Positions 46,881 through 59,712 of a DNA stretch of 64,000 nucleotides are shown one piece after another. The stretch lies in contig DATJUJ010000001.1 of assembly GCA_035502475.1 (NCBI GenBank), forward strand, positions 27,907-91,906, written 5' to 3'. Source of the stretch: Thermoplasmata archaeon. Lineage in GTDB: Archaea; Thermoplasmatota; Thermoplasmata; Lutacidiplasmatales; UBA184. A program made the translations under genes and the position numbers. Under the pieces are notes generated by a model, which was not told where the DNA came from, did no database searches, and saw only the letters and a program-made list of their open reading frames with translations. Numbering within the stretch: position 1 is the first letter of the stretch; every line of letters starts with the position of its first letter.

Positions 46881-48199
46881 CGCGAGCCCCCTGGACCCTC
46901 GTGGAGGCCGATCGGTTCGACGCGGGCCGGGCCGACCGGGCGCTCGCGTACTGGTCGCCGGATGGGCGCTTCGCGCTGTACAACGACTACCGGACCGGCC
47001 AGTCGTTCCTGGTCTCCGACCCGGGTCCGATCCCGGACCAGGGCCCGCCGTCGTGGTGGGCCCGGGGCGCCGGACCCGCTCGCCCGTTCTCGCTCGCGGA
47101 CCCGGCGCCGGTCGAGGGCTACGGAGTGTTCACCTTCCCGTACGGTCCCGTCTCGCTCGGCGTGGCCGAGTCGGGCCGATTCGACCTGCGCACCTACGGC
47201 GAGCGCATTCTGGCGGTCACGCCCATCGGAGGATTCAAGTCCCGACGCCTCCGCGCCGGGCTCGCTGGCCTCTCCCTCGCGGACGCCGGACTCCGGATCG
47301 AGCGCACCGTAGGCAACTTCGCCGCCGCGCACGTCGCCGCCTTTCTCGCCGCGGCGGAGAGCGCCGTCGGCGCCGAGGTGCCGCTCGAGGAGTTGTGGGT
47401 CCGGGCGTTCGCCCAGGAGCTCCAACGGATCTACAACCATCTGCACGTGATCGCCCGGATCGCGGAGGCGGCCAACCAGAACGTCGGCTCCGCCCAGGCG
47501 CATGCGCTCGCCGAGGAGATGGTGCGCTTCCAGGGCCGCGTCTTCGGGCACCGATGGCTCTTTGGGGCCCTGTTGCCGGGGGGACCCGCTCGGCGACTGG
47601 GGTCCGAGGACCGGCGCGCGATCCCGGGCTTCCTCACGGGGCACGAACAGGCGTTCGACCGGCTCTGGTCCCTCTTCCTCGAGTCGCGGACGTTCATCGA
47701 TCGGATCCAGGCGACCGCGCCCGTGCCTCGGGATCGGGCGGTCCGCCTCGGCGGGGTCGGGCCCACCCTCCGGGCTTCGGGGGTCGCGTGGGACGATCGC
47801 CTGCGCGTGCCGCACGCCCCGTACACCGACCTCTTCCTGACGCTGCCCCAGGAGTCGGCGGGAGATGCGCTCGCCCGGGTGCTGGTCCGGGTCCAGGAGA
47901 TCCGGGCGAGCTTCTCGTTGCTCGAGCAACTGCTCGAGCGGTGGCCGTCGAACGGGGCCGTCGGGACCCCGGACCCCCCGATCGCCCCCGGGCGGGGGCT
48001 CGCCCGCGTGGAGGCTCCTAGCGGGGACCTCGTGTACGACGTCACGGTCCGAGCCGGGCGGGTCGATCAGGTGGGGGTCCGGACCGCCAGCCAGGCGAAC
48101 TTCCCCCTGCTCGCCGAGGGACTCCGGGACCAGGTCTTCACCGACTTCCACTTCGCGTACGAGAGCTTCGGGCTCGTCTTCGCCGAGACGGACGGGTGA
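46877..48199 (+). CDS. NuoD / [NiFe]-hydrogenase large-subunit homologue lacking all metal-ligating cysteines
   Basis: GTG overlaps the upstream stop. FTFPYGPVSLGVAESGRFDL, ERTVGNFAAAH where group-4 enzymes have R-x-C-G-x-C-xx-H, and a C-terminus of FGLVFAETDG instead of DPCxxCxxR. The 440-aa translation contains no Cys. Confidence 0.8.
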   Translation: MTRAPWTLVEADRFDAGRADRALAYWSPDGRFALYNDYRTGQSFLVSDPGPIPDQGPPSWWARGAGPARPFSLADPAPVEGYGVFTFPYGPVSLGVAESGRFDLRTYGERILAVTPIGGFKSRRLRAGLAGLSLADAGLRIERTVGNFAAAHVAAFLAAAESAVGAEVPLEELWVRAFAQELQRIYNHLHVIARIAEAANQNVGSAQAHALAEEMVRFQGRVFGHRWLFGALLPGGPARRLGSEDRRAIPGFLTGHEQAFDRLWSLFLESRTFIDRIQATAPVPRDRAVRLGGVGPTLRASGVAWDDRLRVPHAPYTDLFLTLPQESAGDALARVLVRVQEIRASFSLLEQLLERWPSNGAVGTPDPPIAPGRGLARVEAPSGDLVYDVTVRAGRVDQVGVRTASQANFPLLAEGLRDQVFTDFHFAYESFGLVFAETDG

Positions 48200-48203
48200 A
48201 ACG

Positions 48204-48953
48204 ATGTCGACCTGGCTCGAAGCGTCGGTCCGACGGGGGATCCTCACGACGCGCTACCCCGCGTCGGCCGCGACGGCGGACGAGGTACCGGCGACTGGGC
48301 GGGGGCCGCGCGCCCGCCCCGGTGCGTCCGGCGGCGCCGCCCTCGCGGACGCCTGTCCGGTGGGTGCGATCGGGCCGGAGACGCTCGACCAGGGCCGGTG
48401 CATCCGGTGCGCCCGCTGCCTCCCGCGGGGGTTCGACTTCTCCGGACCGGTCGAGGCCTCCACCACCGACCGGGCGGCGCTCCTCGAGCCCCGCGCCGCG
48501 CCTCCGCTCCGGACCGCCGACTCCGAGGCACCGCTGCGCCCGTTCTCGCGGTCGCTCCATGTCTTCCTCGTGGACGTCGGGAGCTGCAACGCCTGCAACC
48601 TCGAGGTCCTGGCCCTCGCGAACCCGTACTATGACTCGCAGCGTCTCGGGATCTTCTTCACGAACTCTCCGCGCCACGCGGACGTGCTGCTCGTGGTCGG
48701 CGTGCCGACGCCCGAGATGGCGGAGCCGCTCCGTCGGGCGTTCGAGGCGCTGCCCGGGCCCAAGGCCGTGGTCGCGGTCGGTGCCTGCCCGATCAGCGGC
48801 GGCGTCTTCCGGGGTAACCCCGACCTGACGCCGTCCCTCGCGGACCTCGTCCCCGTCGATGTCTTCGTGCCCGGGTGCCCCCCGACGCCGTTGGGCGTGC
48901 TCGACGGGATCCTGAGAGCGGCCGGCCGGGCCCGTCGGGAGGCCGTCCCGTGA
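48204..48953 (+). CDS. NuoB/HycG-like small subunit fused to an N-terminal half-ferredoxin segment
   Basis: ACPVGAI...CIRCARCLP at the N-terminus, then GSCNACNLE, GACPISGG and PGCPP (proximal [4Fe-4S] ligands). Confidence 0.82.
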   Translation: MSTWLEASVRRGILTTRYPASAATADEVPATGRGPRARPGASGGAALADACPVGAIGPETLDQGRCIRCARCLPRGFDFSGPVEASTTDRAALLEPRAAPPLRTADSEAPLRPFSRSLHVFLVDVGSCNACNLEVLALANPYYDSQRLGIFFTNSPRHADVLLVVGVPTPEMAEPLRRAFEALPGPKAVVAVGACPISGGVFRGNPDLTPSLADLVPVDVFVPGCPPTPLGVLDGILRAAGRARREAVP

Positions 48954-50956
48954 GCGTCGATCTCGCCGGCGCGCTCCTCACCGCGGCGATCGCGGGCCTG
49001 TTCGCCGGGGCGCCGCTCGCGGTCGTCCGGCGGAGCGCCGGCTACGCAACGACCCTCGTGGCCTCGCTGCTCCTGCTCGTCGTCGCGGCCGACGCGCTGC
49101 GCGTCGGATCGGTCACCGGAGTCGCCTGGACCGGCCCGCTGGGCGACCCGGAGTCGCTGTCGCTCGACGGGCTGTCGGCCTTCTTCGCCCTCGCGGCCTC
49201 GGTCGTCTGGGCCGGGACCTCGGCGTACTCGCTCGCCTACGACACGCGGAGCTCGCCGCTGCTGCCGATCTGCTATGCGGTCACCCTTGGCGCGATCGCG
49301 CTCCTCGTGGCGGCCACGAACTGGTTCCTCTTCCTGGTCGGCTGGGAAACGATGACCCTCGCCTCGTACGGGATGATCTTGCAGGCGCGCGGGCGACCGG
49401 GGCGTGTGTTCTCGGCCTCGTTCGTCTTCCTGGCCTTCGGCGAGGCGAGCACGCTGTTCGTGATCGTCGCGGTCGCGGGGCTTCGGGTGGGCACCGGCTC
49501 GTTCGTCCAGCTGCCGTACCTCGCGACCGGCGCGGTCGCCACGCTCGTCTTCGTTGCGGCGCTCATCGGGTTCGGCCTCAAGATGGGCGTCGCGCCGTTC
49601 CACATGAGCGAGTGGCTGCCGATCGCTCACTCGTCCGCCCCGTCGAATGCCTCCGCCGTCCTCTCCGCGACGCTCACGCTCGCCGGGGCCTACGGCCTGT
49701 TCCGCGTGCTCAGCCTCCTCGCGGCCCCCCCGCTGTGGTGGGGGGCTCTCGTGCTCGGGATCGGGGCCGTCTCCGTGCTGCTGGGGGCGCTCTTCGCGGC
49801 GGTCAGCGAACACACGAAGGGGCTGCCCGCCTACAGCACGATCGAGAACAACGGGCTGATTCTCGTGGCGCTTGGGTCGGCCCTGCTCGCCCAGGCCGAG
49901 GGCCTCACGGCCCTCTACGCCTTCGCGCTGTTCGCGGCGTTCTACCAGGCGATCGCCCACGCGGTCGCGAAGACCGCGCTGTTCCTCTCGGCCGGCTACG
50001 TGGAGCACAGCACGGGGACGTTCGATCTCGGGGCCATCGAGGGCGGGTTCAAGCGGACCGACGGCGCGGCGTACGCGGGCAGCGTCGCCGCCACGCTGAG
50101 CCTGGCCGCCGCCCCCCCGCTCGCCGGATTCGTCAGCGAGTGGATGATCCTCGAGGCGCTCTTCCAGTCGTACCGCTTCCGGCCGGAGTGGGTCCAGTTC
50201 GTTGGACTGCTCGCCGGTGCCGCGGTCGCGCTCGCGGCCGGTCTCATCCTCGTTGCGATGACCAAGTACCTCGGGTTCTCCCTGCTGTGGAGCCCCGCGT
50301 CCCGGGGTCCTCAGGGCCGATCCGCCTTGCTCGGCGGCGTGCTCGGCGCCCTGGGGGCGGTGATCCTCGGGCTCGGTGTCGCGGCGCCCTGGGTGCTCGA
50401 GATGCTGGCGCCGACGGTCTCCGCCTTCGCCCGGGCGCCGATCGCGGTGCCCGTGGGACAGCTCTTGTCGGTGCCGAACGGCTGGTCGATCCTGTCCGGC
50501 GCCCCGTTCGGGATCCTCTCCCCGCCGGTGGTGCCGATCGCGCTCTCGATCGGGGCCGCCGTGGGCGCCGGCTACTGGCTGCTGGGCCGCGCGGGCCGTC
50601 GTCGCGTGCCGGTCTGGATGGCGGGCAGCGCCCCGGCCCGGACCGACGAGACCTACACGTCCTTCGGGTTCAGCAGCGGGATCCGGATCATGATGCGGTC
50701 GGTGCTCCAGACCCGCGAGGTGCGGGCGAGCACCCCGAGCGGCACGACGGCCGAGTTCGCCGGCGCCGTGCCGTACAGCGTCGATCTCGAGGTGCTCGAC
50801 GTGTTCAAGGTCTTCTACGACGGGCTCGTCAGCGGCGGCGCCCGGTTCTCGACGGCCCTCAAGACCGCGATCATGCCCGGCCGCCCGGGGCGTTACCTCG
50901 CCTACATCCTCATCGTCACCCTCGTCGTCGTGATCTACACCGCGGCCGTGGGCTAG
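48950..50956 (+). CDS. NuoL/HyfB-like antiporter-type subunit
   Basis: 668 aa, polytopic. GWETMTLASYGMI and WLPIAHSSAPSNASA. GTG overlaps the upstream stop. Confidence 0.85.
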   Translation: MSVDLAGALLTAAIAGLFAGAPLAVVRRSAGYATTLVASLLLLVVAADALRVGSVTGVAWTGPLGDPESLSLDGLSAFFALAASVVWAGTSAYSLAYDTRSSPLLPICYAVTLGAIALLVAATNWFLFLVGWETMTLASYGMILQARGRPGRVFSASFVFLAFGEASTLFVIVAVAGLRVGTGSFVQLPYLATGAVATLVFVAALIGFGLKMGVAPFHMSEWLPIAHSSAPSNASAVLSATLTLAGAYGLFRVLSLLAAPPLWWGALVLGIGAVSVLLGALFAAVSEHTKGLPAYSTIENNGLILVALGSALLAQAEGLTALYAFALFAAFYQAIAHAVAKTALFLSAGYVEHSTGTFDLGAIEGGFKRTDGAAYAGSVAATLSLAAAPPLAGFVSEWMILEALFQSYRFRPEWVQFVGLLAGAAVALAAGLILVAMTKYLGFSLLWSPASRGPQGRSALLGGVLGALGAVILGLGVAAPWVLEMLAPTVSAFARAPIAVPVGQLLSVPNGWSILSGAPFGILSPPVVPIALSIGAAVGAGYWLLGRAGRRRVPVWMAGSAPARTDETYTSFGFSSGIRIMMRSVLQTREVRASTPSGTTAEFAGAVPYSVDLEVLDVFKVFYDGLVSGGARFSTALKTAIMPGRPGRYLAYILIVTLVVVIYTAAVG

Positions 50957-51035: not shown

Positions 51036-52274
51036 ATGAGCGCCGCCGCTCCGGTGGAGGCCCCCCCGGCGCGGGCACGGCTCCCCCACGACGTCTGGGC
51101 GATCGCGTGGACGAGCCTGTTCTCCGACTGGAGCTACGAGATGCTCCTGCCGATCCTCCCGTTCTTTCTGGCCTTCGAGCTGGGCGCGAGCCCGCTCGTC
51201 ATCGGGGTCGTGGAGGGGCTCGCGATCTTCGTCCAGAGCCTGGCCCAGTTCGTTTCGGGCCTCCGCCTGGCGGCCCGCCCGGACCGCCGCTCGGTCGGGA
51301 CGGTCGGTTACGCGACCACGACCGGAGCGCACGCGCTCATCGCCCTCGCGACGGTCTGGCCGGTCGTGGCGGCCCTGCGTGCGGGCGCGTGGGCCGGACG
51401 CGGAGAGCGGCAGCCGATCAAGCGCGCGATCCTCGCCGACGCGTCGCGCCGGGTCGGCGCCGGTCGGTCGTTCGGGCTCGAGCAGATGTTCGACTCGCTG
51501 GGGGCGGTGGCCGGGACCGCCTCGGCGGCCGCGGTCGTCCTGACCGAGGGTCTCCCGGGGCTTCGGCTCGTGTTCGCGTTCAGCGTGCTGCCCGGGCTGG
51601 TGGCGGTCGTGCTGTTCCGTCGTCTGGTCCGGGACCAGGACCGACCCCTCCGGGCGCCGGTCGGCCCGGGCGGGCCCGCGCGCCCCGCGTTCTCCCGGGA
51701 GTTCCGCTGGTTCCTGGTCGCGACGACCGTCTTTGGGCTCGCGTTCTTCAACGTCCTCCTGGGGCTGCTCCGCGTGGGCACGGGGCTCGCCGCCGGCGGC
51801 ACCGGTGCCGTGAGCGCGGTGCTCGTCGCCCTCCTCGCCTACCTCCTCTACAACCTCGTCTACGCCGGGCTCGCGTACCCGTCGGGGCTGGTGGCGGACC
51901 GGTTCTCCTCGCTCGGGCTGGTGACGGCGAGCTTCCTTCTGTTCGCGGTGGTGGACGGGCTCTTTGCGCAGGCGCCGAGCGTACCGGTCGCCCTCGCGGC
52001 CTTCCTCCTGGCCGGGGCCCAGCTCGCGTTCCTCGACGTCGGCGCGGCCGCGTGGATCAGCCGCGCGGTGCCGTCGGCGGACCTCGGGGCGGCGTTCGGA
52101 TGGTTCGGCGCGGTGCAAGGCGGCGCATCCCTGGTCGCCTCGGTGCTGGTCGGGGCGCTGTGGACCTACGACTCCGCACCGCTCGCGTTCTCGGTCTCGG
52201 CGGTCCTGGCGATCGCCGGCGCGGCCTGCCTGGCGCCGATCGTCTTCGGGGCCCGGCGTCGCTCGGCTCCGTGA
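51036..52274 (+). CDS. MFS transporter
   Basis: 412 aa with about 12 helices and typical MFS organisation. Confidence 0.75.
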   Translation: MSAAAPVEAPPARARLPHDVWAIAWTSLFSDWSYEMLLPILPFFLAFELGASPLVIGVVEGLAIFVQSLAQFVSGLRLAARPDRRSVGTVGYATTTGAHALIALATVWPVVAALRAGAWAGRGERQPIKRAILADASRRVGAGRSFGLEQMFDSLGAVAGTASAAAVVLTEGLPGLRLVFAFSVLPGLVAVVLFRRLVRDQDRPLRAPVGPGGPARPAFSREFRWFLVATTVFGLAFFNVLLGLLRVGTGLAAGGTGAVSAVLVALLAYLLYNLVYAGLAYPSGLVADRFSSLGLVTASFLLFAVVDGLFAQAPSVPVALAAFLLAGAQLAFLDVGAAAWISRAVPSADLGAAFGWFGAVQGGASLVASVLVGALWTYDSAPLAFSVSAVLAIAGAACLAPIVFGARRRSAP

Positions 52275-52409
52275 CGGCCCGAGGGCGGTCGGGTGTGCGG
52301 GGTTCCGCGCGCCAGCAAACACTATCTATCCTCGCGCGAGACCGGAGGACGGCGATGGGGCTCGCCATAACCGCCGCTCCGCGGATGATGGCCCCTACAG
52401 CGGGTCCCC

Positions 52410-54197
52410 ATGTCGCCAGCTTCCGTCAGGTCGTCGCGCTCCGGGCCCGATAGCCCGCTCGCCGAACTCTCCGCGTTCGCCGCGTCGGCGGGCCAACCTG
52501 AGCTCGCCGGCGAGATCGCCGAGGCCGCCGGCGCCCTCGGCCGCGGGGAGCTCACGGTCGCGGTGCTCGGACAGTTCAAGCGAGGAAAGTCGTCGATCCT
52601 GAACGCCTTCGCAGGCCGCCCGGCGTTCCCGGTCGGGATCCTGCCGACGACCGCCGTGCCGACCGCGCTCGTGCGCGGGCCCGACGAGGTCCGGGTGCTC
52701 CACACGTCGGGCCAGACCGAGCGCGTGCCGCTCGACCGGGTGATCGAGTTCGTCTCGGAACAGCACAACCCGGGCAACCGTCGTGGGGTCGCACGCGTCG
52801 TGGTGTCCCAACCCTTGCCCGAGTGGACGCAGGGGATCACGTTCGTGGACAGCCCGGGGATCGGATCCGCCAGCGACGCGAACACCCGGTCCGCGCGCGC
52901 GCTCTTGCCAAGCGTCGATGCCGCCATCTTCGTGCTCTCCCCCGATCCCCCGATCACCGCCCCGGAGATCGCGTTCCTCTCGGACGTCTCCGCGCAGGCG
53001 GCCAAGTTCTTCTTCGTGGTCAACAAGATCGACCTGCTCGGACCCGCGGAGCGCGTCGAGCTGCTGGACTACCTCGGATCGGTGCTCCGGGAGCGGTGCG
53101 GGTTCGGGTCGGTCCGGCTCTTCCCGACCTCCGCGCGTCTCGGGCTCGCCGACCCCGGCCCCGGGCCCGCGGCCGACCGGACCGCCTCGGGCCTTCCCGA
53201 GCTCTGGGAGGCGTTACGCACCTTCCTCGGGCCCGGCCGAAGGGAAGCGGTGCAGCGGGTCCTTCGCGTGCGCGTCCGGCAGTTCGCGACGCGGCTCGAC
53301 GGGTGGATCTCGCTCGCCGTGAACGCCTCCCAGCTGACGTCGGACGAGCGCGAGCGCCGGTGGGCGGCGCTCGCGCGAGGGATGGACGATCTTCGGATCG
53401 AGCACCGGGCGACGCAGGCCATGATCGAAGGGGAGTTGCGGAGCCTCGAAGCCGATCTGCCGGCTCGGCTTTCGGCCGAGAGCACGGTCCGGGTCCTGCG
53501 CATCACCTCGGCGCTCCGCGCCCGCATTCCCCACCTCGCGGCCCGGACGGCGGGGGGCCTCGCGGGCGCCTTCGACGAGGCGTTCCGGGCCGGCGTGCGA
53601 CCGGAGGTCGCCGAGATCCGCTCCGCCGTGACGCAGGGCGTCGAGGCCGACCTTTCCCGGCTCGGGAACCTCTTCGAGGAGCGGATCCGCCGCGCGGCGG
53701 AGCGGTTGCGCGCCTTGGTCGCCCAGGAGTTCGGAGTCGAGCTCGCCCCCCCGGCGGTGCACGTCGTGCTCGGAGGGTCCGCCCGGTACTCGGATCGGGT
53801 GGAGGGCCTGTTCGAAGGCACGTTCGCCGGTCAGACCGTGCTGATCCTGCCGGCCCGGGTCCTTCGACCCGGACTCCTCCGTCGGACCCCCCAGCTCGTC
53901 GAGGAGGAGATGAGCGCCCAATCGGGCCGCCTCCGCAGCGACCTCGTCGAGCGGATCGAGCGCGCCTGGGCCGAGACCCGGGTCACGGTCACCGCCCAGG
54001 TCGATCGAGACCTCCGGGTGATCGAGGAAGCGGTCGCCGCAGGTCGGACCTCCCACGACGCGGGGCTGGAGGCGGCCGCCCGATGGCGGGGGCGCATGGA
54101 GGAGCTGCGGCGAGGCATCGCGGCGATCGCAGTCCCGGACGGGGAGGACGACGTGCGGCGCACCGCGTCCACACTGGGGAGGGCGGAACGTGCCTGA
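52410..54197 (+). CDS. Dynamin-like GTPase (bacterial dynamin-like protein family)
   Basis: 595 aa. G1 is GQFKRGKSS, G3 is FVDSPGIGS, G4 is VVNKIDLL. A long helical C-terminal region follows. Confidence 0.8.
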   Translation: MSPASVRSSRSGPDSPLAELSAFAASAGQPELAGEIAEAAGALGRGELTVAVLGQFKRGKSSILNAFAGRPAFPVGILPTTAVPTALVRGPDEVRVLHTSGQTERVPLDRVIEFVSEQHNPGNRRGVARVVVSQPLPEWTQGITFVDSPGIGSASDANTRSARALLPSVDAAIFVLSPDPPITAPEIAFLSDVSAQAAKFFFVVNKIDLLGPAERVELLDYLGSVLRERCGFGSVRLFPTSARLGLADPGPGPAADRTASGLPELWEALRTFLGPGRREAVQRVLRVRVRQFATRLDGWISLAVNASQLTSDERERRWAALARGMDDLRIEHRATQAMIEGELRSLEADLPARLSAESTVRVLRITSALRARIPHLAARTAGGLAGAFDEAFRAGVRPEVAEIRSAVTQGVEADLSRLGNLFEERIRRAAERLRALVAQEFGVELAPPAVHVVLGGSARYSDRVEGLFEGTFAGQTVLILPARVLRPGLLRRTPQLVEEEMSAQSGRLRSDLVERIERAWAETRVTVTAQVDRDLRVIEEAVAAGRTSHDAGLEAAARWRGRMEELRRGIAAIAVPDGEDDVRRTASTLGRAERA

Positions 54198-54353
54198 ATC
54201 GTCCCGGGCGGCGCCCCCCGTCGGAGAACCGTTCCTCGGTCGACGGGCGAGGTCCGCCGCTCCCGCGCCGGCCCGCTCCGCCCGGGCCGCTGGCCGCCCT
54301 CAACCCGCCGGGCCCCCGGGCGGGAGCGGGCGACGCGCCGACCCCACCCCGGG

Positions 54354-55904
54354 GTGACCGCCGAGGGACCACGCACGATGGATCCGTCGAGCGTCCTCGG
54401 GGAGTTGCCGGAAGCCCCGGATCCCGCGACGGTCGCGCGCACGTTGATGGATCTCGGGCTCGACCGGGTGTTCGACGCCCTCGCGCGCGGCCGGGAGGCG
54501 TACGACCTCCTCCCGATCCTGCGGTCGCCGAGCACGGATGTGGCCGTCGTGCGGTTCCGCCACGAGGTGTTCCGGGACCTCGAACGCGCCCCGGTCCGCC
54601 GGGTCGTGGACGCCTTCGCCGGGGGCATGCGCGAGGTGCGGCGCGCCCGGGAGTGGTCCGGCAAACTGAGGAACGAGCTCCAGCGAGCCCGGTGGTGGCT
54701 GGAGGCGGTCCGGGCGTACGGCGCCGCCGCGGACCGCTTGGCCCGCGACCTCGCGGCCTCCGAGCCGCGTTCCGCGGGCCTCGTCGCGCTCCGGGACCAC
54801 CTCGAGTCCCTGGTGCGGAGCGAGAGCTTCCAGCGGGTACAGCGAGAGTCCGAGGCGCTGGAACGCGGGCTGAACGCGATCCGGTACACCGTCCGGATCG
54901 AGGGGAGTCGTGTCACGATCGGCCCGTTCGCGGGCGAGCCGGACTACAGCGCCGTCGTCGAGTCGACGTTCCGACGGTTCCCGCAGGGCGCGGGGCCGCC
55001 GGCCCGGGCCGTCGGTCCGGAGGACGCGGAGATGGACCCGGTCGAGGAGTTCGTCCAGGACCAGGTCGCCCGTCGGTTCCCGGAGCTGTTCGTCCGGCTC
55101 CGGGGGTTTCCGGCCGCGCACCCCGAGTTCGTGGACCGCCGCGTGGCGCGGTTCGACCGGGAGGTCCAGTTCTACCTCGCCTACCTCGACCACCTGGTCC
55201 CGCTGCGCGAGGCCGGGCTCGCCTTCGCCTATCCGGTCCTGTCGGAGCGTTCGAAGGAAGAGGAGGTCCTGGCCACGTTCGACCTCGCGCTGGCCGGCGC
55301 CCTCCGCGACGGCCCGACGTCCGTGGTGCCGAACGACGTGCGTCTGCACGGTCCGGAACGGATCCTCGTCGTATCGGGGCCGAACAACGGCGGCAAGACG
55401 ACGTACGCCCGCACCGTCGGACAGCTGCACTACCTGGCCCAGCTCGGCTGCCCCGTCCCGGGTCAGACCGCGACCCTGCTGCTCTGCGACCGGGTGCTCA
55501 CCCACTTCGAACGCGGCGAGCCGTCCGCGGACCTGCGGGGCAATCTCGCCGACGAGCTCGTCCGAGTGCGCGAAATCCTCCGCACGACGACCGATCGGTC
55601 GGTGGTCGTCCTCAACGAGACGTTTGCTTCGGCCGCGCTGGAGGATGCCCTCGAGCTCGGGCGCGCGGTGATCGCCCGGATCGTCGCCCGCGACGCGCTC
55701 GCGGTCTACGTCACGTTCGTCGACGAGCTCTCGGTCGGGGGACCGGAGACCGTCAGCCTCGTCAGCACCACCCGTCCGGACGATCCGGCGGTGCGCACGT
55801 ACCGAGTCCTCCGGAGAGCCGCGGACGGGCGTGCCTACGCGCTCGCGATCGCCGAGAAGCACGGGCTCAGCTATGCGGCGCTCCGGGAGAGGATCCGGCC
55901 GTGA
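54354..55904 (+). CDS. MutS-related ATPase A (domain III/V only, no mismatch-binding domain)
   Basis: 516 aa. Walker A is SGPNNGGKTTYART. Walker B-like is VVVLNETFASAA (N replaces D). VYVTFVDEL stands where MutS has ATHYHEL. ATG 54378 is an alternative start. Confidence 0.75.
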   Translation: MTAEGPRTMDPSSVLGELPEAPDPATVARTLMDLGLDRVFDALARGREAYDLLPILRSPSTDVAVVRFRHEVFRDLERAPVRRVVDAFAGGMREVRRAREWSGKLRNELQRARWWLEAVRAYGAAADRLARDLAASEPRSAGLVALRDHLESLVRSESFQRVQRESEALERGLNAIRYTVRIEGSRVTIGPFAGEPDYSAVVESTFRRFPQGAGPPARAVGPEDAEMDPVEEFVQDQVARRFPELFVRLRGFPAAHPEFVDRRVARFDREVQFYLAYLDHLVPLREAGLAFAYPVLSERSKEEEVLATFDLALAGALRDGPTSVVPNDVRLHGPERILVVSGPNNGGKTTYARTVGQLHYLAQLGCPVPGQTATLLLCDRVLTHFERGEPSADLRGNLADELVRVREILRTTTDRSVVVLNETFASAALEDALELGRAVIARIVARDALAVYVTFVDELSVGGPETVSLVSTTRPDDPAVRTYRVLRRAADGRAYALAIAEKHGLSYAALRERIRP

Positions 55905-57520
55905 GGGTCCGGCTGCTCTACGCGGACCGTGAGCTTGCCCCCCGGGCCCGCCCCGACCCGGGAGCGCCGGACCGCGAACGGGACCTCGAGCTCGGGGTGC
56001 TGTACACCGTCATGGCGGGCTCCGACCCCGTCCGTCGCGTTGTGGTCCCGCGAGTCCTCGCGGAAGGTCTCACCGATCCGGACGCGATCCGCTACCGCCA
56101 GGAGGTGCTCGCGGACTGCCTCGGTCACGGACCGGTGGTCCAATCGCTCTACGGGCTTGCCGTGCGCGGTCTCGCGGCCGAGCGGGCGGTCTGGGGGTTC
56201 GGGAACGCCCCGAGCTCCGTGATCTACCGCGGGACGAGGTTGCTGCGGCGGTTTCTGCCCCTGTTGCGCGAGCTGCGCGCGATCGCGGAGGCGCACCGGT
56301 CCGCGTTCGCCTCGCGCGGCTTTCTCCGAGGCTTCGACGAAGTCCTTCGGGAGCTCGACCCGGCGTTCTTCGAGGCGGCGGAAGCGCACGCCCAAGTCCT
56401 CGAGTTCCCCACCGGGGTCCTGCTCAGCGCTTCGCTGGGTCCCGGCAATCGGGGGGCCCGGTACGAGCTTCACCGCCCGTCGACGACGGCCGCCGGATGG
56501 TGGCGGCGCCTGCTGCCGACCCGGCGGTCCCCGTTCGCCTTCGAGCTCGACGACCACGACGAGTCCGGGCACCGCGCCCTCTCCCGCCTCACCGACCGCG
56601 GCCTCGCCGGAGCGGCGCATGCGCTCGGACGCGCCAACGCCCACATCCTCGGCTACTTCGCGGCGCTGCGCGACGAGCTGAGCTTCTACCTCGCGTGTCT
56701 CGACCTCCACGCCCGTCTCGCGGCCGCCGGGGCCGAGGTCTCGATGCCGGAGCCGGTCACCGAGCCGGACCGACTCTCGGCTGGGGGGCTCTACGACCCG
56801 ACCCTCGTGCTGCGGGGGGGCGCCGGGGTCGTCCCGAACGACCTCACGGCCGATGGGCGACCGCTCCTCGTCATCACGGGGGCGAACCAGGGCGGCAAGA
56901 CGACCTTCCTGCGCGGCCTGGGCCTCGCGCAGCTCCTGATGCAGGCCGGTTGCTTCGTTCCGGCCCGCCGCTGGACCGCGAGCGTCGCGCCGGAGGTGCT
57001 CACGCACTTCAAGCGGGAGGAGGACACCGCCTTAGCGAGCGGGAAGCTCGACGAGGAGCTGGGCCGGATGGCTGCGCTCGTGGGCCGCGTGCGTCCGGGC
57101 AGTCTGGTCTTGCTCAACGAGTCGTTCGCCTCCACGAACGAACGCGAAGGTTCGATCCTCGCGGGGGAGATCGTCCGCGCCTTCCTCGACTCGGGGGTCC
57201 GCGTCGCGTACGTCACCCACCTCTACGATCTCGCGGACCGGCTCCTCCACCAGGAAGCCGCGCGCGGTCTCTTCCTGCGCGCCGAGCGACTGCCCGACGG
57301 ACGACGCACCTACCGGATGGTCGTCGGGAGTCCGCTGCGGACGTCCTTTGCCGCCGACGTCTTCCGCGAGGTGTTCGGCGAGCCGGTGTCGGCCGCGTCG
57401 GAGACGCCCTCGGGGGAACCGCGGGCAATGAGCGCGCCCGATCGCGCGCGGGTCGAGCTCCGATCGGGGGCCGCTCGGAGCGGACGACCCGAAGGCGCGC
57501 CGGAAGCCGGGGGCCGATGA
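55901..57520 (+). CDS. MutS-related ATPase B (paralogue of A, domain III/V only)
   Basis: GTG overlaps the stop of A. Walker A is TGANQGGKTTFLRG. LVLLNESFASTNEREG, and YVTHLYDLA (TH retained). This is the real part of the 1565-aa track ORF. Confidence 0.75.
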   Translation: MRVRLLYADRELAPRARPDPGAPDRERDLELGVLYTVMAGSDPVRRVVVPRVLAEGLTDPDAIRYRQEVLADCLGHGPVVQSLYGLAVRGLAAERAVWGFGNAPSSVIYRGTRLLRRFLPLLRELRAIAEAHRSAFASRGFLRGFDEVLRELDPAFFEAAEAHAQVLEFPTGVLLSASLGPGNRGARYELHRPSTTAAGWWRRLLPTRRSPFAFELDDHDESGHRALSRLTDRGLAGAAHALGRANAHILGYFAALRDELSFYLACLDLHARLAAAGAEVSMPEPVTEPDRLSAGGLYDPTLVLRGGAGVVPNDLTADGRPLLVITGANQGGKTTFLRGLGLAQLLMQAGCFVPARRWTASVAPEVLTHFKREEDTALASGKLDEELGRMAALVGRVRPGSLVLLNESFASTNEREGSILAGEIVRAFLDSGVRVAYVTHLYDLADRLLHQEAARGLFLRAERLPDGRRTYRMVVGSPLRTSFAADVFREVFGEPVSAASETPSGEPRAMSAPDRARVELRSGAARSGRPEGAPEAGGR

Positions 57521-58014
57521 TCCCGGACCGACCGCCCCGGCGGAGCGGCGCCCGCGGACGACGGTCCGTCGATCGCGCGGACGAGTACATGCGGATCGTG
57601 GTCTCGGTCGCCGTGCTGGAGCGGGGCCGGGTCCTCGTGATGCGGGAGGAGGACGAGCCCCACACCGGGGCCTGGGTGCTGCCGCAAGGGTACCCCCACC
57701 CCGGGGAGACGCTCGTGGCCGCCGCGAGCCGCGAGGTGATGGAGGAGCTCGGACTCGACGTCGCGGTCCAGGGGCTCGTCGGAGTCTACGACGCGTTCGA
57801 GCGGAACGCGGGAGGACCGGCGGTGCATTGGGTCACGGTCTGCTACTGGGCCCGTCTCCTGCGCGACCTTCCGCCGCGGGCGAGTCCGGAGGCGATCGAC
57901 TTCGCGTGGGTCGAGCCGTCCGCGCTAGCGACCTCCGCCATGCCGCAGCTTCGGGACCGGGCGGAGGACCTCGTCCGGCTCCTCACGTCCCGTCGGCGCG
58001 AGGCGAGATCGTAG
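57517..58014 (+). CDS. Nudix hydrolase
   Basis: ATGA overlap with the upstream stop. Complete Nudix box GYPHPGETLVAAASREVMEELGL (G-x5-E-x7-REUxEExGU). Confidence 0.85.
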   Translation: MIPDRPPRRSGARGRRSVDRADEYMRIVVSVAVLERGRVLVMREEDEPHTGAWVLPQGYPHPGETLVAAASREVMEELGLDVAVQGLVGVYDAFERNAGGPAVHWVTVCYWARLLRDLPPRASPEAIDFAWVEPSALATSAMPQLRDRAEDLVRLLTSRRREARS

Positions 58015-58029
58015 GGCACGGGGACCCCG

Positions 58030-58482
58030 TCACGGCACGACGACCACCGGACGGCCCGCCCCGGCCAGGACCGCGGCCGACACGGATCCGAGGAAGAACC
58101 GGCTCGCCCCCCGGAGCCCGCGGGTGCCGACGACGATGAGGTCGGCCTCGACCTTCCGCGCCGTGGCGAGAATCGCCTCCGCGGCGTTCCCCTCGAGGAC
58201 CAGGACCTCGAGCGCGACCCCGTCCTTGGCCGCCGTCGCCTGGACCGCGCGGAGCGCAGAGGCGATCGCGTCCGGTTCGGTCCGCTGCTCCTCTTCGGTG
58301 CGCGGCTCGGCGATCGCGGCCGGTGCCCCGACGATGTGCACCGCCCAGATCCGGCCCCCGGTCCGGCCCGCGAGCCGGAGCGCGAACCCGAGGGCCCTCG
58401 TCGCCGGTGCGGAGCCGTCGAACGCGACCACGAGCCGCCGCGCGGGGTCGGAGGCGCCCCCCGCCGGGGACGCCGACGTCAT
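58030..58482 (-). CDS. Universal stress protein (UspA family)
   Basis: 150 aa, LVVAFDGS...A, DLIVVGTRGLRGASRFFLGSVS, PVVVVP. Confidence 0.88.
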   Translation of the reverse strand: MTSASPAGGASDPARRLVVAFDGSAPATRALGFALRLAGRTGGRIWAVHIVGAPAAIAEPRTEEEQRTEPDAIASALRAVQATAAKDGVALEVLVLEGNAAEAILATARKVEADLIVVGTRGLRGASRFFLGSVSAAVLAGAGRPVVVVP

Positions 58483-58919
58483 GCGTGCCTCGGCAGGTAA
58501 CGCTCCGCCGCCCGCTCGGCCTCCCGGTCCGCGGCGAGCGCGGCCGGGGGACCGGGCGCGGTCGGGTGCACCGCCAGCGCCGCCTCGAGCGCCTTGACGC
58601 GGCGAGCGAGCGCCTGGTTATCCGCGTAGTACTGGGCCCCGGCGATCGTGAGCCGAGCGCGTTCTCGGGCGCACTCGGCGTAGGTGCGGGCGAGCTCGAC
58701 CAGGTGGGTCTCGGACAGCTCGGGACGCGGCGCTCGATCCTCGGCAAACGACGCCGGGGTCGGCAGCAGCGGGAGCATCCCCTCGAGCCACAGCCAGAAT
58801 CCCGCGGGGCCCAACTCGTCGACCTCGATCCACGTCTGGAGCCGGCGCTTGAGCGCCTCCGGGATCGTCCACGGGGAGCGTTCGGCCGGACCGGTCGGTT
58901 CAGAGCCCTCGTTCGCCAC
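58479..58919 (-). CDS. Hypothetical protein, tandem paralogue A (unrecognised family)
   Basis: 146 aa. GTG start with GGAGGTG 6 nt upstream. The stop overlaps the usp ATG (ATGA). Shares IP..L.RRL..W..VDE.G..GFWLWL...PLLP.P...RLT..G.QY..DN.ALARR.KALEAAL...ERYLP with paralogue B. Confidence 0.65.
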   Translation of the reverse strand: MANEGSEPTGPAERSPWTIPEALKRRLQTWIEVDELGPAGFWLWLEGMLPLLPTPASFAEDRAPRPELSETHLVELARTYAECARERARLTIAGAQYYADNQALARRVKALEAALAVHPTAPGPPAALAADREAERAAERYLPRHA

Positions 58920-58933
58920 GGTGCCACCTCCTT

Positions 58934-58956
58934 AGGGGTCATCGGCAGCCCGCTGC
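58934..58956 (-). promoter_or_regulatory. Conserved 5' leader element, copy A (GCAG-nnnn-CTGC mini-hairpin + CGATGACCCCT, immediately upstream of the SD)
   Basis: The 15-mer CTGCCGATGACCCCT (minus strand) is identical to the one upstream of paralogue B. Confidence 0.45.
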
Positions 58957-59054
58957 GGTTTCCGAGCGCGCCCGGCGCGATCGGGGGCCGACCCCACGGC
59001 CGGTCGTACGATGGACCCGTGACTATTTGTCCGTCTCGATGCCCGGCCCACGGC

Positions 59055-59513
59055 CTAGCGCGAGCGGGCGGCGCGCGACGGCAGGTACCGCTCCACAGCG
59101 ATCGCGGCATCCTCGTCCTTGGGGACTTCGACCCGGTGGCCGGCGACCGCGAGGGTGCGCAGCGCGGCCTCGAGCGCCTTGAGCCGGCGCGCGAGCGCGA
59201 GGTTGTCCCGCGCATACTGGTCACCGATTACGGTGAGACGAGAGTTCTCGCGCGCATAGACGACCATCCGCCGGCGCAACTCCCGCGTCTCCTCGGACTC
59301 GGGTCGCTCGACCGGGCGGAGCCCTTGTCTCGGGGCCTCCGGGACGGGCAGGAGCGGGACGACCGCCCGAAGCCAGAGCCAGAAGCCCTCGATGCCGACC
59401 TCGTCGACGTCGACCCAGTCGCGCAATCGACGGCGGAGGTCCGCGGGGATCTTGAGATTCTCCCGGTCGGGGTCCTGCTTTCTCCTCGCCTTACCGATGA
59501 CGTAGCCCAGCAC
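59055..59513 (-). CDS. Hypothetical protein, tandem paralogue B (unrecognised family)
   Basis: 152 aa. GTG start with GGGAGG about 8 nt upstream. Roughly 40 percent identical to paralogue A by eye. Confidence 0.65.
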   Translation of the reverse strand: MLGYVIGKARRKQDPDRENLKIPADLRRRLRDWVDVDEVGIEGFWLWLRAVVPLLPVPEAPRQGLRPVERPESEETRELRRRMVVYARENSRLTVIGDQYARDNLALARRLKALEAALRTLAVAGHRVEVPKDEDAAIAVERYLPSRAARSR

Positions 59514-59527
59514 CGCTGCTGCCTCCC

Positions 59528-59550
59528 AGGGGTCATCGGCAGAGCGCTGC
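59528..59550 (-). promoter_or_regulatory. Conserved 5' leader element, copy B
   Basis: Carries the same 15-mer, CTGCCGATGACCCCT, and the GCAG-nnnn-CTGC mini-hairpin as copy A, at the same distance from the start codon. Confidence 0.45.
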
Positions 59551-59712
59551 AGTTCCCTCCCGCGGTTTGGCGGAAGGTGGCTGACCCCACAGCCGGGCCG
59601 CTCACTCCCCGCGGGTATTTGGGCCGAGCGCGCGGCGCGGTAGCGTCTCGATACAAAACGTTCTTGAGTGTGGATTCCGCGAGAGAGATTAGCACGGGTC
59701 GAAACGTAGTGG

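What the first reader, a model, noticed from the sequence alone, without database searches (positions are those of the whole stretch)
52410..58014. Cassette of a dynamin-like GTPase, two tandem MutS-domain-V ATPases and a Nudix hydrolase: candidate undescribed system
Seen in sequence: four co-directional genes sit between an MFS transporter gene and a convergent usp gene.
- A 595-aa dynamin-like GTPase with G1 GQFKRGKSS, G3 DSPG and G4 NKID.
- After a 156-nt spacer, two paralogous MutS-like proteins of 516 and 539 aa. Both have only the helical core and the ABC ATPase domain, and no mismatch-binding N-domain.
- A 165-aa protein with a complete Nudix box.
The last three genes are joined by 4-nt overlaps: GTGA at 55901 and ATGA at 57517.
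A full-length canonical mutS-mutL pair sits elsewhere in this window (12.6-17.0 kb), so this pair is unlikely to be the cell's mismatch-repair MutS.
Established knowledge: bacterial dynamin-like proteins act in membrane stress and repair and in some anti-phage systems. MutS-family ATPases act as clamps on nucleic acids or, for MutS2, on collided ribosomes. Nudix enzymes hydrolyse nucleotide derivatives.
Inference: the linkage suggests one functional module, either defence/stress sensing or membrane-coupled nucleic-acid surveillance. I do not recognise this gene combination as a named system.
Basis: partly seen in the sequence, partly recalled or inferred. Interest (0 to 1): 0.8.

Follow-up and report, generated by a model that had tools for sequence, protein, structure and literature searches.

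The report
Fluoride-riboswitch operon: dynamin, MutS4 pair, Nudix

Summary
All four genes, their motifs and both 4-nt overlaps are confirmed. The decisive feature was missed: a fluoride riboswitch (Rfam RF01734, 44.3 bits, gathering score 34) at 52342-52404, ending 5 nt before the dynamin ATG.

- **MutS pair.** It is the MutS4A/MutS4B subfamily named in 2007, defined by adjacent genes whose stop overlaps the next start. "mutS" downstream of the crcB (fluoride) motif was reported in 2010.
- **80 species-level loci from about 15 phyla.** A is followed by B in 78, the junction is ATGA or GTGA in 77 of 78, and 62 hold at least one fluoride riboswitch. In 42 the riboswitch sits directly upstream of MutS4A.
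- **Dynamin-like protein.** It is a recurrent partner: present in 23 loci, 13 with its own riboswitch, and always first in the Thermoplasmata relatives whose upstream flank is available.
- **Nudix.** It is only loosely linked (3 of 7 archaeal loci, including the window), but one copy has its own riboswitch.
- **Other neighbours.** Typical fluoride-regulon genes: enolase, CrcB, Na+/H+ exchanger, Usp and a NiFe-less complex-I-like cluster.

Both MutS4 proteins always carry Asn in place of the Mg-coordinating Walker B Asp. Verdict: a new member of a known kind; the biochemical role remains open.

The parts
52342..52404 (+). Fluoride riboswitch aptamer (crcB motif), ending 5 nt before the DLP start codon
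   Evidence: Rfam RF01734: 44.3 bits against a gathering score of 34, E 5.4e-9, full model 1-64. The same element sits in the same place in L001, L004, L005, L006, L010 and L032. My own covariance model gives 73 bits. Across 150 hits the structure covaries.
52410..54197 (+). Bacterial-type dynamin-like GTPase (BDLP/IniA class), 595 aa
   Evidence: Pfam Dynamin_N 1.4e-21. A family profile against PDB gives BDLP 2j68 at 7.7e-49 and IniA 6j72 at 3.4e-34. The AF2 model has pLDDT 86.4, with a GTPase domain plus a long helical bundle. Foldseek's best matches are IniA and BDLP over the full length.
54354..55904 (+). MutS4A (probable true start ATG 54378): lever/core helices, a small tip and an ABC ATPase domain V; Walker A GPNNGGKT, Walker B LNE
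   Evidence: MutS_V 1.2e-16. There are more than 4800 homologue clusters and 870 representatives at E<=1e-30. The AF2 model (pLDDT 89.8) best matches the T. thermophilus MutS2 core 7vuf. The Asp-to-Asn change is seen against the window's own MutS and in 89/89 family members.
55901..57520 (+). MutS4B, paralogue of A, translationally coupled through GTGA; Walker A GANQGGKT, Walker B LNE
   Evidence: MutS_V 2e-16. It is 35% identical to A over the C-terminal half. A B-type gene follows A in 78/80 loci, with an ATGA or GTGA junction in 77/78.
57517..58014 (+). Nudix hydrolase, 165 aa, coupled through ATGA; a lineage-specific addition to the operon
   Evidence: NUDIX 4.8e-20. The nearest solved structures are NUDT18 and MutT2, weakly. 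The orthologue in L009 is on the opposite strand with its own fluoride riboswitch. Riboswitch-to-Nudix arrangements also occur in L011 and L037.
43750..43825 (+). Candidate second fluoride riboswitch (below the Rfam gathering score) upstream of the complex-I-like cluster
   Evidence: RF01734 28.4 bits, E 8e-6 in a 601-nt search; R1 11.2 bits. Fourteen clear riboswitches occupy the same position in other loci.
43843..50956 (+). Six-gene Ehr/Hyf-like membrane complex: NuoH-like, 215-aa protein, NuoN-like, 49-kDa-like, NuoB-like, NuoL-like. The large subunit lacks the NiFe cysteines.
   Evidence: Pfam NADHdh, Proton_antipo_M x2, Complex1_49kDa and Oxidored_q6. No CxxC motifs in 31 of 31 homologues. 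The cluster lies within 10 kb of MutS4AB in 22/80 loci.
51036..52274 (+). MFS transporter between the complex-I-like cluster and the riboswitch
   Evidence: MFS_1 6e-23. An MFS gene lies next to the DLP in L001, L006 and L007 as well.
58030..58482 (-). Universal stress protein, second gene of a convergent two-gene unit
   Evidence: Usp 2.7e-30. It overlaps the 146-aa ORF by 4 nt. Usp recurs in 15 of 80 loci and in the DLP-side loci.
58479..58919 (-). 146-aa protein of unknown family, first gene of the Usp unit
   Evidence: No Pfam hit. It is a paralogue of the 152-aa ORF and has a homologue in L006.
58926..59010 (-). Candidate fluoride riboswitch (sub-threshold) upstream of the 146-aa/Usp unit
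   Evidence: RF01734 19.0 bits, E 0.021; R1 18.1 bits, E 5e-4.
59055..59513 (-). 152-aa paralogue of the 146-aa protein
   Evidence: phmmer 5e-29 between the two.
59520..59603 (-). Candidate fluoride riboswitch (sub-threshold) upstream of the 152-aa ORF
   Evidence: RF01734 18.7 bits, E 0.026.

Best explanation
The cassette is a fluoride-inducible operon of a Thermoplasmata-like archaeon, and it sits inside a small 'fluoride island' (about 43.7-59.6 kb).

**Shown**
- A fluoride riboswitch aptamer lies 5 nt upstream of the dynamin start codon.
- The same arrangement, riboswitch then DLP-MutS4A-MutS4B or riboswitch then MutS4A-MutS4B, recurs across archaea and many bacterial phyla.
- It recurs next to classical fluoride-regulon genes.

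**Inferred mechanism**
1. When cytoplasmic F- rises, the aptamer folds around Mg-F and releases the start-codon region. In the ligand-free fold that region pairs with the 5' half of the aptamer. There is no room for a terminator, so this would be a translational ON switch.
2. The DLP is made, followed by MutS4A, MutS4B and Nudix. The last three are translationally coupled by 4-nt overlaps.
3. MutS4A and MutS4B form a heterodimeric MutS-type ABC-ATPase clamp. It has lever helices and an ATPase domain, only a small uncharged tip, and no mismatch-binding or connector domains. Its Mg-coordinating Walker B Asp is always Asn.
4. The DLP is a BDLP/IniA-type membrane-remodelling GTPase.

**My best guess at the role**
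- The regulon's general logic is to export F-, hold pH and ion balance, and supply extra or insensitive copies of Mg-dependent phosphoryl-transfer enzymes that Mg-fluoride complexes poison.
- Nudix fits the 'inhibited enzyme' class.
- MutS4AB would be a fluoride-tolerant NTPase that acts on a nucleic-acid or nucleoprotein substrate.
- The DLP would protect or repair the membrane under HF/acid stress, alongside the ion-translocating complex-I-like module.

The confidence given (0.85) is for the operon being riboswitch-controlled and part of the fluoride regulon. The specific protein roles are much less certain (about 0.2-0.3).
For: - **Riboswitch in the window.** RF01734 is above the gathering score.
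- **Same position elsewhere.** The riboswitch is in the same place in all 8 related loci tested with Rfam.
- **Density of riboswitches.** My own covariance model finds about 170 hits at E<0.01 in 1.5 Mb of MutS4 loci. Of the best 150, 47 are directly upstream of MutS4A, 20 upstream of a DLP, 14 upstream of the first gene of the complex-I-like cluster, 6 upstream of Na+/H+ exchangers, 6 upstream of enolase and 3 upstream of Nudix.
- **Covariation.** 98.5% of cells are paired; 163 double changes against 33 in shuffles.
- **Counts over 80 species loci.** A is followed by B in 78; the junction is ATGA or GTGA in 77/78; 62 hold at least one riboswitch; 42 have one directly upstream of MutS4A; a DLP is present in 23, 13 with its own riboswitch.
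- **Sampling from the DLP side.** The riboswitch is directly upstream of the DLP in L089 and L090. In L088 it is upstream of S4A-S4B-DLP.
- **Unbiased clustering of neighbours.** Enolase, DUF190 x3, His_Phos_1, Na_H_Exchanger, Usp and CrcB. These match the experimentally characterised E. cloacae fluoride operon ppaC-uspA-eno-gpmA-crcB (PMC5533749).
- **Literature.** crcB motif upstream of mutS and 'formate hydrogen lyase' (PMC2864571); review of the regulon (PMC11139923).
- **Ligand-free fold.** It pairs GGCGAUGGGGCUC with GGGUCCCCAUGUCGCC.
- **Protein structure and motifs.**
Against: - Nothing here is experimental. Ligand binding and induction are inferred from homology.
- The 156-180 nt DLP-MutS4A spacer is unusual. 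Relatives have overlaps or spacers of 23 nt or less. It could hold an internal archaeal promoter, so MutS4AB and Nudix might also be expressed independently.
- The alternative pairing with the start codon is clear in the window and L001 but only partial in L004 and L005. Its fold energy is not better than shuffles (z -1.2).
- 18 of 80 loci showed no riboswitch at my threshold.
- No fluoride exporter, enolase or pyrophosphatase is in the window.
- The proposed protein roles are guesses. The only experimental paper on MutS4 reports increased homologous recombination in M. smegmatis (PMC5742357). That points to DNA.
Confidence: 0.85

Rival explanations
1. MutS4AB is a DNA recombination or repair factor. 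Fluoride or acid stress damages DNA, and the operon is a damage-response module, with Nudix sanitising the nucleotide pool as MutT does.
For: - The fold is MutS-like, with lever helices and a dimerising ATPase.
- Expressing the M. yongonense MutS4 operon raised recovery of an rpoB allele by homologous recombination in M. smegmatis (PMC5742357).
- The nearest solved Nudix relatives are NUDT18 and MutT2.
Against: - There are no mismatch-binding or connector domains.
- The clamp tip is about 53 aa with a net charge near 0.
- The Walker B Asp is replaced by Asn in every member.
- The conserved neighbours are membrane, ion and glycolysis genes rather than DNA-repair genes.
- The single experimental report is indirect.
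Confidence: 0.2
2. MutS4AB works like MutS2: as a clamp that splits or rescues stalled ribosomes or other NTPase-dependent nucleoprotein complexes when fluoride poisons translational GTPases.
For: The best structural match is the MutS2 core (7vuf; TM-score normalised by target length, TMt, 0.58-0.60). The B. subtilis MutS2-disome structure is also among the hits. Lin et al. place MutS4 apart from MutS1.
Against: There are no KOW or SMR domains, which recruit MutS2 to collided ribosomes (PMC10897456 abstract). There is no ribosomal gene linkage. No data exist on translation under fluoride in these organisms.
Confidence: 0.1
3. DLP and MutS4AB are accessory or assembly factors for the NiFe-less complex-I-like (Ehr/Hyf-like) membrane complex that so often lies beside them.
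For: The cluster is within 10 kb in 22/80 loci across phyla and in the window. A MutS-like ATPase (KamC) is annotated as an enzyme reactivase. It gives weak hits: 60 bits for B and 38 for A.
Against: Most MutS4 loci (58/80) lack the cluster within 10 kb. The two units usually have separate riboswitches and variable orientation. That fits co-regulation better than a physical partnership.
Confidence: 0.08
4. It is an anti-phage defence system (Eleos-like dynamin plus a MutS-like sensor plus a Nudix effector).
For: Weak PADLOC similarities: LeoA 8.9e-10, LeoBC 1e-7, mad8 5.5e-4, PDC-S07 2.7e-9.
Against: - MutS4A has no PADLOC hit.
- There is a fluoride riboswitch at the 5' end.
- The neighbourhood is metabolic and ion-homeostasis genes, not a defence island.
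- The family is highly conserved (40-55% identity across phyla), unlike fast-evolving defence genes.
Confidence: 0.03

Closest known systems
Fluoride riboswitch (crcB motif, Rfam RF01734) regulon
   Same: The aptamer scores above the gathering score in a 5' UTR. The downstream and neighbouring genes belong to the classes reported for this riboswitch: mutS-like genes, 'formate hydrogen lyase'-like clusters, Na+/H+ antiporters, enolase, Usp and CrcB.
   Different: - The first gene here is a dynamin-like GTPase. I found no paper holding 'fluoride', 'riboswitch' and 'dynamin' together. Baker et al. 2012 was not readable, so prior mention cannot be excluded.
- No exporter is in the window.
- The aptamer abuts the start codon in an archaeon. 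Control is therefore probably translational rather than by a terminator.
MutS4A/MutS4B subfamily (Lin, Nei & Ma 2007, PMC2190696; Kim et al. 2017, PMC5742357)
   Same: - Only the MutS C-terminal ATPase region is detectable by sequence.
[quoted passage not shown]
- The pair is present in Thermoplasmata-type archaea and in Thermoanaerobacter (L013).
- The M. yongonense island likewise carries enolase, 'NADH dehydrogenase complex', a hydrogenase subunit and MutS4AB.
   Different: - The family was described from 5 bacteria and 2 archaea. It is now seen in at least 578 species genomes and in 870 representatives at 50% identity.
- Neither paper noted the link to the riboswitch, the DLP partner or the invariant Walker B Asn.
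MutS2 (T. thermophilus core, B. subtilis ribosome-splitting factor)
   Same: It is the closest fold: lever plus ATPase, without domains I and II.
   Different: MutS4 has no KOW or SMR domains. It is a heterodimer of two paralogues instead of a homodimer. Its Walker B is NE instead of DE.
Bacterial dynamin-like proteins BDLP (Nostoc) and IniA (Mycobacterium)
   Same: GTPase with G1-G4 motifs plus a neck/trunk helical bundle. These are the best sequence-profile and fold matches.
   Different: This DLP is riboswitch-controlled and linked to MutS4AB. Many relatives carry a fused DUF6062 domain. The membrane paddle is not clearly predicted: residues 442-471 have low confidence.
Eleos (LeoA/LeoBC) anti-phage dynamins
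   Same: Dynamin-family GTPase; weak PADLOC similarity.
   Different: There is no LeoBC partner and no defence-island context. The operon is under fluoride-riboswitch control.

Membership tests
Fluoride riboswitch RF01734 | Covariance-model score at or above Rfam's gathering score (34 bits) over the full model | tested here: met
   44.3 bits, model positions 1-64, E 5.4e-9.
Fluoride riboswitch RF01734 | Conserved core (GGCGAUGG...CGCC, AACCGCC, UGAUG, CCUAC) and paired stems supported by covariation among relatives | tested here: met
   The alignment shows the core. Over 150 related hits, 98.5% of cells are paired, 163 cells change on both sides against 33 in shuffles, and slid controls collapse.
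Fluoride riboswitch RF01734 | Located in the 5' UTR of a gene, sense strand | tested here: met
   It ends 5 nt before the ATG at 52410. The position is the same in L001, L004, L005, L006, L010 and L032.
Fluoride riboswitch RF01734 | Binds fluoride and switches expression on | not testable with these tools
   Needs in-line probing or a reporter assay.
MutS4A/MutS4B (Lin et al. 2007) | Only the MutS ATPase (MutSac / domain V) region is detectable; no domains I and II | tested here: met
   Pfam finds MutS_V only. PDB sequence hits cover residues ~320-510 only.
MutS4A/MutS4B (Lin et al. 2007) | Two paralogous genes adjacent, with the stop of A overlapping the start of B | tested here: met
   GTGA at 55901; ATGA or GTGA in 77/78 related loci.
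MutS4A/MutS4B (Lin et al. 2007) | Groups with the founding members (Thermoplasma, Ferroplasma, Thermoanaerobacter) in A and B clades | tested here: inconclusive
   No tree was built with the founding sequences. Indirect support: the closest named relatives are Thermoplasmata; a Thermoanaerobacter genome (L013) carries the same pair; and the first gene always scores higher with A and the second with B.
Canonical mismatch-repair MutS (MutS1) | N-terminal mismatch-binding domain I, connector II and clamp IV | tested here: not met
   Absent from A and B. Domains I, III, IV and V were detected in the window's true MutS at 12581-15211; connector domain II was not among its Pfam hits.
Canonical mismatch-repair MutS (MutS1) | Walker B Asp-Glu | tested here: not met
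   LNE aligns with LLDE of the window's MutS. Asn is found in 89/89 A sequences and in all 62 scorable B sequences.
MutS2 | C-terminal KOW and SMR domains | tested here: not met
   No such Pfam hits. The proteins end shortly after domain V.
Bacterial dynamin-like protein (BDLP/IniA type) | Dynamin-type GTPase domain with G1-G4 | tested here: met
   Dynamin_N 1.4e-21. GQFKRGKSS, DSPG and NKID are in the translation and are invariant in the family alignment.
Bacterial dynamin-like protein (BDLP/IniA type) | Helical neck/trunk bundle following the GTPase domain | tested here: met
   The AF2 model has helices 277-574. Foldseek gives full-length matches to IniA 6j72 and BDLP 2j69.
Bacterial dynamin-like protein (BDLP/IniA type) | Membrane-binding paddle or tip | tested here: inconclusive
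   The tip loop 442-471 has low confidence. There is no transmembrane segment.
Eleos (LeoA/LeoBC) defence system | LeoA together with LeoBC partner genes | tested here: not met
   Only weak LeoA (36 bits) and LeoBC (30 bits) similarity of the single DLP. The adjacent genes are not Leo proteins.
Nudix hydrolase superfamily | Nudix box G-x5-E-x7-R-E-U-x-E-E-x-G-U | tested here: met
   GYPHPGETLVAAASREVMEELGL in the translation; Pfam NUDIX 4.8e-20.
Group 4 [NiFe]-hydrogenase / formate hydrogenlyase (neighbouring cluster) | N- and C-terminal CxxC nickel-iron ligands in the large subunit | tested here: not met
   The window has ERTVGNFAAAH and TDFHFAYESFG in place of RxCGxCxxxH and DPCxxCxxR. None of 31 homologues next to MutS4 has either motif.

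The most novel reading that the evidence does not exclude
MutS4A/B, with its universally altered magnesium site (Walker B Asn) and its dynamin partner, could be a dedicated fluoride-damage machine. It would be an NTPase clamp evolved to keep working, or to sense nucleotide-Mg-fluoride adducts, when ordinary P-loop NTPases are poisoned. It might rescue a nucleoprotein or membrane complex. That would give the first function for a whole MutS subfamily and for a prokaryotic dynamin in ion toxicity.
Probability: 0.2. Interest if true: 0.8.

Novelty: new member of a known kind. Interest (0 to 1): 0.55.

Why it matters
MutS-like genes were listed among fluoride-riboswitch targets as early as 2010, yet I found no later functional study of them in the searchable literature.

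This locus and its relatives sharpen the question in four ways:
- The riboswitch-linked 'MutS' is specifically the MutS4A/B heterodimer.
- It is widespread: at least 578 species genomes.
- It always has Asn in place of the Mg-coordinating Walker B Asp.
- It is repeatedly co-regulated or co-transcribed with a BDLP-type dynamin and with a NiFe-less complex-I-like module.

These points give concrete, testable handles on how cells cope with an ion that poisons Mg-dependent phosphoryl transfer. Candidate experiments are fluoride tolerance of deletion mutants, ATPase activity with and without Mg/F, and the Asn-to-Asp reversion.

The result also warns against annotating these genes as 'DNA mismatch repair' or 'formate hydrogenlyase'.

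Tried and rejected
- **Defence-system reading.** PADLOC gave only weak, partial hits and none for MutS4A. Rejected.
- **Literature on a dynamin-MutS link.** Searches found nothing relevant. Baker et al. 2012 (PMC4140402) and the Annu Rev Biochem review (PMC8217344) are not held. The full published gene list for the riboswitch could therefore not be checked.
- **KamC (MutS-like reactivase).** 60 bits for B and 38 for A, against a cut-off of 300. Not a member; kept only as a precedent for non-DNA roles.
- **DLP-MutS4A spacer.** A long GC hairpin is present, but the fold energy is no better than shuffles (z -0.7). There is no riboswitch and no bacterial-type promoter or terminator. Unexplained.
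- **Start-codon sequestration.** It is seen in the minimum-energy fold but is only partly conserved and not significant against shuffles. Kept as an inference only.
- **Apparent A-B fusion protein P0322 (1026 aa).** The A part breaks off at residue ~433 and B restarts at 501. Probably a frameshift or gene-call artefact, not evidence for a heterodimer.
- **First ORF clustering.** It was polluted by shadow ORFs of this GC-rich DNA. The 'cluster 2' Nudix signal was mostly S4B shadow frames. Nudix linkage was re-assessed by phmmer, the Nudix box and riboswitch position.

Full report
**1.

- The dynamin-like protein (DLP) is at 52410-54197: 595 aa, Pfam Dynamin_N 1.4e-21, with GQFKRGKSS, DSPG and NKID.
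- MutS-like A is at 54354-55904 and MutS-like B at 55901-57520. Both match MutS_V at about 1e-16.
- A Nudix protein is at 57517-58014, with a complete Nudix box.
- The overlaps GTGA (55901) and ATGA (57517) are exact.
- The flanks are an MFS gene and a convergent Usp gene.
- A full MutS-MutL pair lies at 12581-16992.
- Small correction: MutS-like A probably starts at ATG 54378, as in the identical database protein and the homologue alignment.

**2.

An Rfam scan of the window finds a fluoride riboswitch aptamer (RF01734, the crcB motif) at 52342-52404 on the + strand.
- It scores 44.3 bits against a gathering score of 34 and covers the whole model.
- It ends 5 nt before the DLP start codon.
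- The same element is in the same position in four related Thermoplasmata contigs (L001, L004, L005, L006), in a Desulfobacteraceae genome (L010) and in a Chloroflexota genome (L032).
- In L009 it precedes the Nudix orthologue, which there lies on the opposite strand. In L026 it precedes a Na+/H+ exchanger-Usp...DLP-MutS-MutS array.

**3. The MutS pair is MutS4A/MutS4B**

- Lin, Nei & Ma (2007) defined MutS4 as proteins with only the MutS ATPase region, encoded by two adjacent paralogous genes in which the stop of A overlaps the start of B. They found it in a few bacteria, including Thermoanaerobacter, and in Thermoplasma and Ferroplasma (PMC2190696).
- The window pair fits this, and the family is far larger than was known:
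  - more than 4800 clusters at 90% identity;
  - 870 representatives at 50% identity with E<=1e-30;
- In 80 species-level loci from about 15 phyla, A is followed by B in 78. The junction is ATGA or GTGA in 77 of 78.

**4. Neighbourhood**

From the MutS4 side, a covariance model built from nine Rfam-confirmed aptamers finds about 170 hits at E<0.01 in 1.5 Mb of these loci.

The hits covary as the riboswitch structure requires. 98.5% of cells are paired, there are 163 double changes against 33 in shuffles, and the slid controls collapse.

Positions of the best 150 hits:

| Directly upstream of | Hits |
|---|---|
| MutS4A | 47 |
| a DLP | 20 |
| first gene of a six-gene complex-I-like cluster | 14 |
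| Na+/H+ exchangers | 6 |
| enolase | 6 |
| Nudix genes | 3 |

Per locus:
- 62/80 hold at least one riboswitch.
- 42/80 have one directly before MutS4A.
- 23/80 have a DLP within 10 kb: 11 adjacent on the same strand, 13 with their own riboswitch.
- 22/80 have the complex-I-like cluster.

Unbiased clustering of all ORFs in the loci, followed by Pfam, identifies further recurrent neighbours. These are enolase (20 loci), a triple-DUF190 protein (18), Usp (15), His_Phos_1/Gpm-like (11), Na_H_Exchanger, MoxR/DUF58, and CrcB (about 20 by phmmer).

This is the gene set of the experimentally characterised fluoride operon of Enterobacter cloacae FRM: ppaC, uspA, eno, gpmA, crcB (PMC5533749). It also matches the classes listed for the riboswitch in the literature. 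Those are mutS, K+/Cl- transport and 'formate hydrogen lyase' in Weinberg et al. 2010 (PMC2864571), and Na+/H+ antiporters, pyrophosphatase, HAD, enolase and FHL in the 2024 review (PMC11139923).

**5. From the DLP side**

- The DLP's orthologues (37-58% identity, about 37 clusters) come from Thermoplasmata-type contigs. In all four looked up, the order is riboswitch-DLP-MutS4A-MutS4B.
- More distant DLPs were chosen without regard to MutS4:
  - L089 and L090 have a riboswitch directly upstream of the DLP.
  - L088 has riboswitch-S4A-S4B-DLP.
  - L007, L089, L090 and L091 each have a Na+/H+ exchanger and Usp beside the DLP.
  - L088 and L091 carry MutS4 pairs and L090 a remnant; L007 and L089 carry none.
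- The DLP family is therefore a fluoride-regulon member in its own right, and a frequent but not obligatory partner of MutS4AB.

**6. Nudix is peripheral**

Among the seven archaeal loci (window included), the Nudix orthologue shows four arrangements:
- adjacent on the same strand only in the window;
- adjacent on the opposite strand, with its own riboswitch, in L009;
- 1.6 kb downstream in L006;
- absent from L001/L002, L004 and L005.

It belongs to the regulon but not to a conserved four-gene cassette.

**7. The window is a small fluoride island**

With sensitive settings there are three more riboswitch-like elements, all below Rfam's gathering score.
- 43750-43825 (+): 28.4 bits, 18 nt before the first gene of the complex-I-like cluster 43843-50956.
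- 58926-59010 (-): 19.0 bits, before the 146-aa ORF/Usp pair.
- 59520-59603 (-): 18.7 bits, before a paralogous 152-aa ORF.

No exporter, enolase or pyrophosphatase was found in the window.

**8. The proteins**

*MutS4A*
- The model (pLDDT 89.8, pTM 0.88) consists of long lever helices, a small beta tip (residues ~176-228) and the ATPase domain.
- Its best structural match is the T. thermophilus MutS2 core, followed by MutS and MSH proteins, over the full length. By sequence only the ATPase domain is recognisable.
- The tip is about 53 aa and roughly uncharged across the family. That is weak evidence against a DNA clamp.

*Both subunits*
- Both keep the Walker A lysine and the catalytic Glu.
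- Both carry Asn in place of the Walker B Asp. LNE aligns with LLDE of the window's own MutS. This holds in 89/89 A sequences and all 62 scorable B sequences.
- From established knowledge, that Asp coordinates the catalytic Mg2+. An E. coli MutS D693N structure (3k0s) appears among the fold hits.
- Because fluoride poisons phosphoryl-transfer enzymes as Mg-F (or Al-F/Be-F) nucleotide complexes, a family-wide change at the Mg site is suggestive. Its meaning is untested.

*DLP and the neighbouring complex*
- The DLP is a BDLP/IniA-type dynamin by profile and by fold.
- The neighbouring 'hydrogenlyase-like' complex lacks both NiFe-binding CxxC motifs in all 31 homologues examined. It is an Ehr-type complex-I relative, not a hydrogenase.

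**9. Mechanism**

*Shown:* an aptamer of the fluoride class sits at the 5' end of the operon; this arrangement is conserved; and the neighbourhood is a fluoride regulon.

*Inferred:*
- The aptamer abuts the start codon. In the ligand-free minimum-energy fold its 5' half pairs with GGGUCCCCAUGUCGCC. The switch therefore probably acts on translation initiation.
- This pairing is only partly conserved and is not statistically distinguished in such GC-rich RNA.
- MutS4A and B probably form a heterodimer. The evidence is obligate pairing, translational coupling and distinct Walker A variants.

*What they do is unknown.* My preferred reading is a fluoride-tolerant NTPase clamp plus a membrane-repair dynamin, within a regulon that exports F-, stabilises pH and ion balance, and compensates for inhibited Mg-enzymes.

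The DNA-recombination reading (PMC5742357), a MutS2-like ribosome role and an accessory role for the complex-I-like module remain open. The anti-phage reading is not supported.

**10. Novelty**

- The kind is known: fluoride-riboswitch-controlled genes, including mutS-like ones.
- So is the MutS4A/B gene pair.
- The window adds a new archaeal member in which a dynamin leads the operon and a Nudix gene is appended.
- I could not find the DLP link, the invariant Walker B Asn or the NiFe-less nature of the 'FHL' cluster in the searchable literature.

Noticed in passing
window 43750-43825 (+), 58926-59010 (-), 59520-59603 (-): Three further fluoride-riboswitch-like elements below Rfam's gathering score (28.4, 19.0 and 18.7 bits). 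Each sits just upstream of a gene start: the complex-I-like cluster, the 146-aa ORF/Usp pair, and the 152-aa paralogue. They carry insertions and a GUGG variant of the GAUGG core.
   Followed up: partly
window 46877-48199 (large subunit of the cluster 43843-50956) and 30 homologues in the fetched loci (L003-L084): The 'formate hydrogenlyase-like' cluster linked to fluoride riboswitches and MutS4 lacks both NiFe-binding CxxC motifs in 31/31 large subunits (ERxxGxxSxAH and TDFxFxExSFG instead). It is an Ehr-type complex-I relative, so the FHL label used in the fluoride literature is probably a misnomer for these clusters.
   Followed up: partly
window 55614-55619 (MutS4A LNE) and the equivalent in MutS4B; all 80 loci: The Walker B Asp is replaced by Asn in every MutS4A (89/89) and every scorable MutS4B (62). 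This is the residue that coordinates catalytic Mg2+ in MutS (E. coli D693).
   Followed up: partly
P0161-P0240 (DLP homologues); L051 7055, L062 17346; L088 6001-7905; L091 6001-7911: Many bacterial relatives of the DLP carry a fused DUF6062 domain. Stand-alone DUF6062 genes sit directly downstream of fluoride riboswitches. DUF6062 therefore looks like another uncharacterised fluoride-regulon component tied to the dynamin.
   Followed up: no
window 58479-58919 (-) and 59055-59513 (-); L006 11897-12448: Two paralogous small proteins (146 and 152 aa, no Pfam family, shared motif FWLWL..(M/V)(L/V)PLLP), each behind a riboswitch-like element. One homologue lies in L006 between a Gpr1/Fun34/YaaH gene and the Nudix gene. 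The window also has a Gpr1/Fun34/YaaH gene at 59744-60379.
   Followed up: partly
L024, L043, L051, L055 (7-8 riboswitch hits each within about 21 kb): Some genomes have dense 'fluoride islands' with a riboswitch in front of nearly every operon around MutS4AB. About 39 of the best 150 riboswitch hits precede genes I did not identify.
   Followed up: no
window 54198-54377: The DLP-MutS4A spacer is 156-180 nt. Relatives have overlaps or spacers of 23 nt or less. It contains a 16-bp GC hairpin (about 54271-54330). The fold energy is no better than shuffles, and no riboswitch, promoter-like or terminator-like site was found.
   Followed up: partly
L045 9797-16613, L050 9800-16292, L081 (two pairs): Some bacteria carry two MutS4A-MutS4B pairs. 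In L045 and L050 the pairs are in tandem (A-B-A-B); L081 carries two separate pairs. In L045 the second pair has its own riboswitch.
   Followed up: no
L003, L015, L028, L033, L043, L049 upstream of MutS4A: In actinobacterial loci a MoxR AAA+ / DUF58 / DUF4129-like set lies divergent from MutS4A. Riboswitches sometimes precede it too (L033 5709, L049 2642).
   Followed up: no
P0322 (1026 aa): An apparent MutS4A-MutS4B fusion in the representative library. The A part stops matching at residue ~433 and B restarts at 501, so it is probably a frameshifted gene call rather than a natural fusion.
   Followed up: yes
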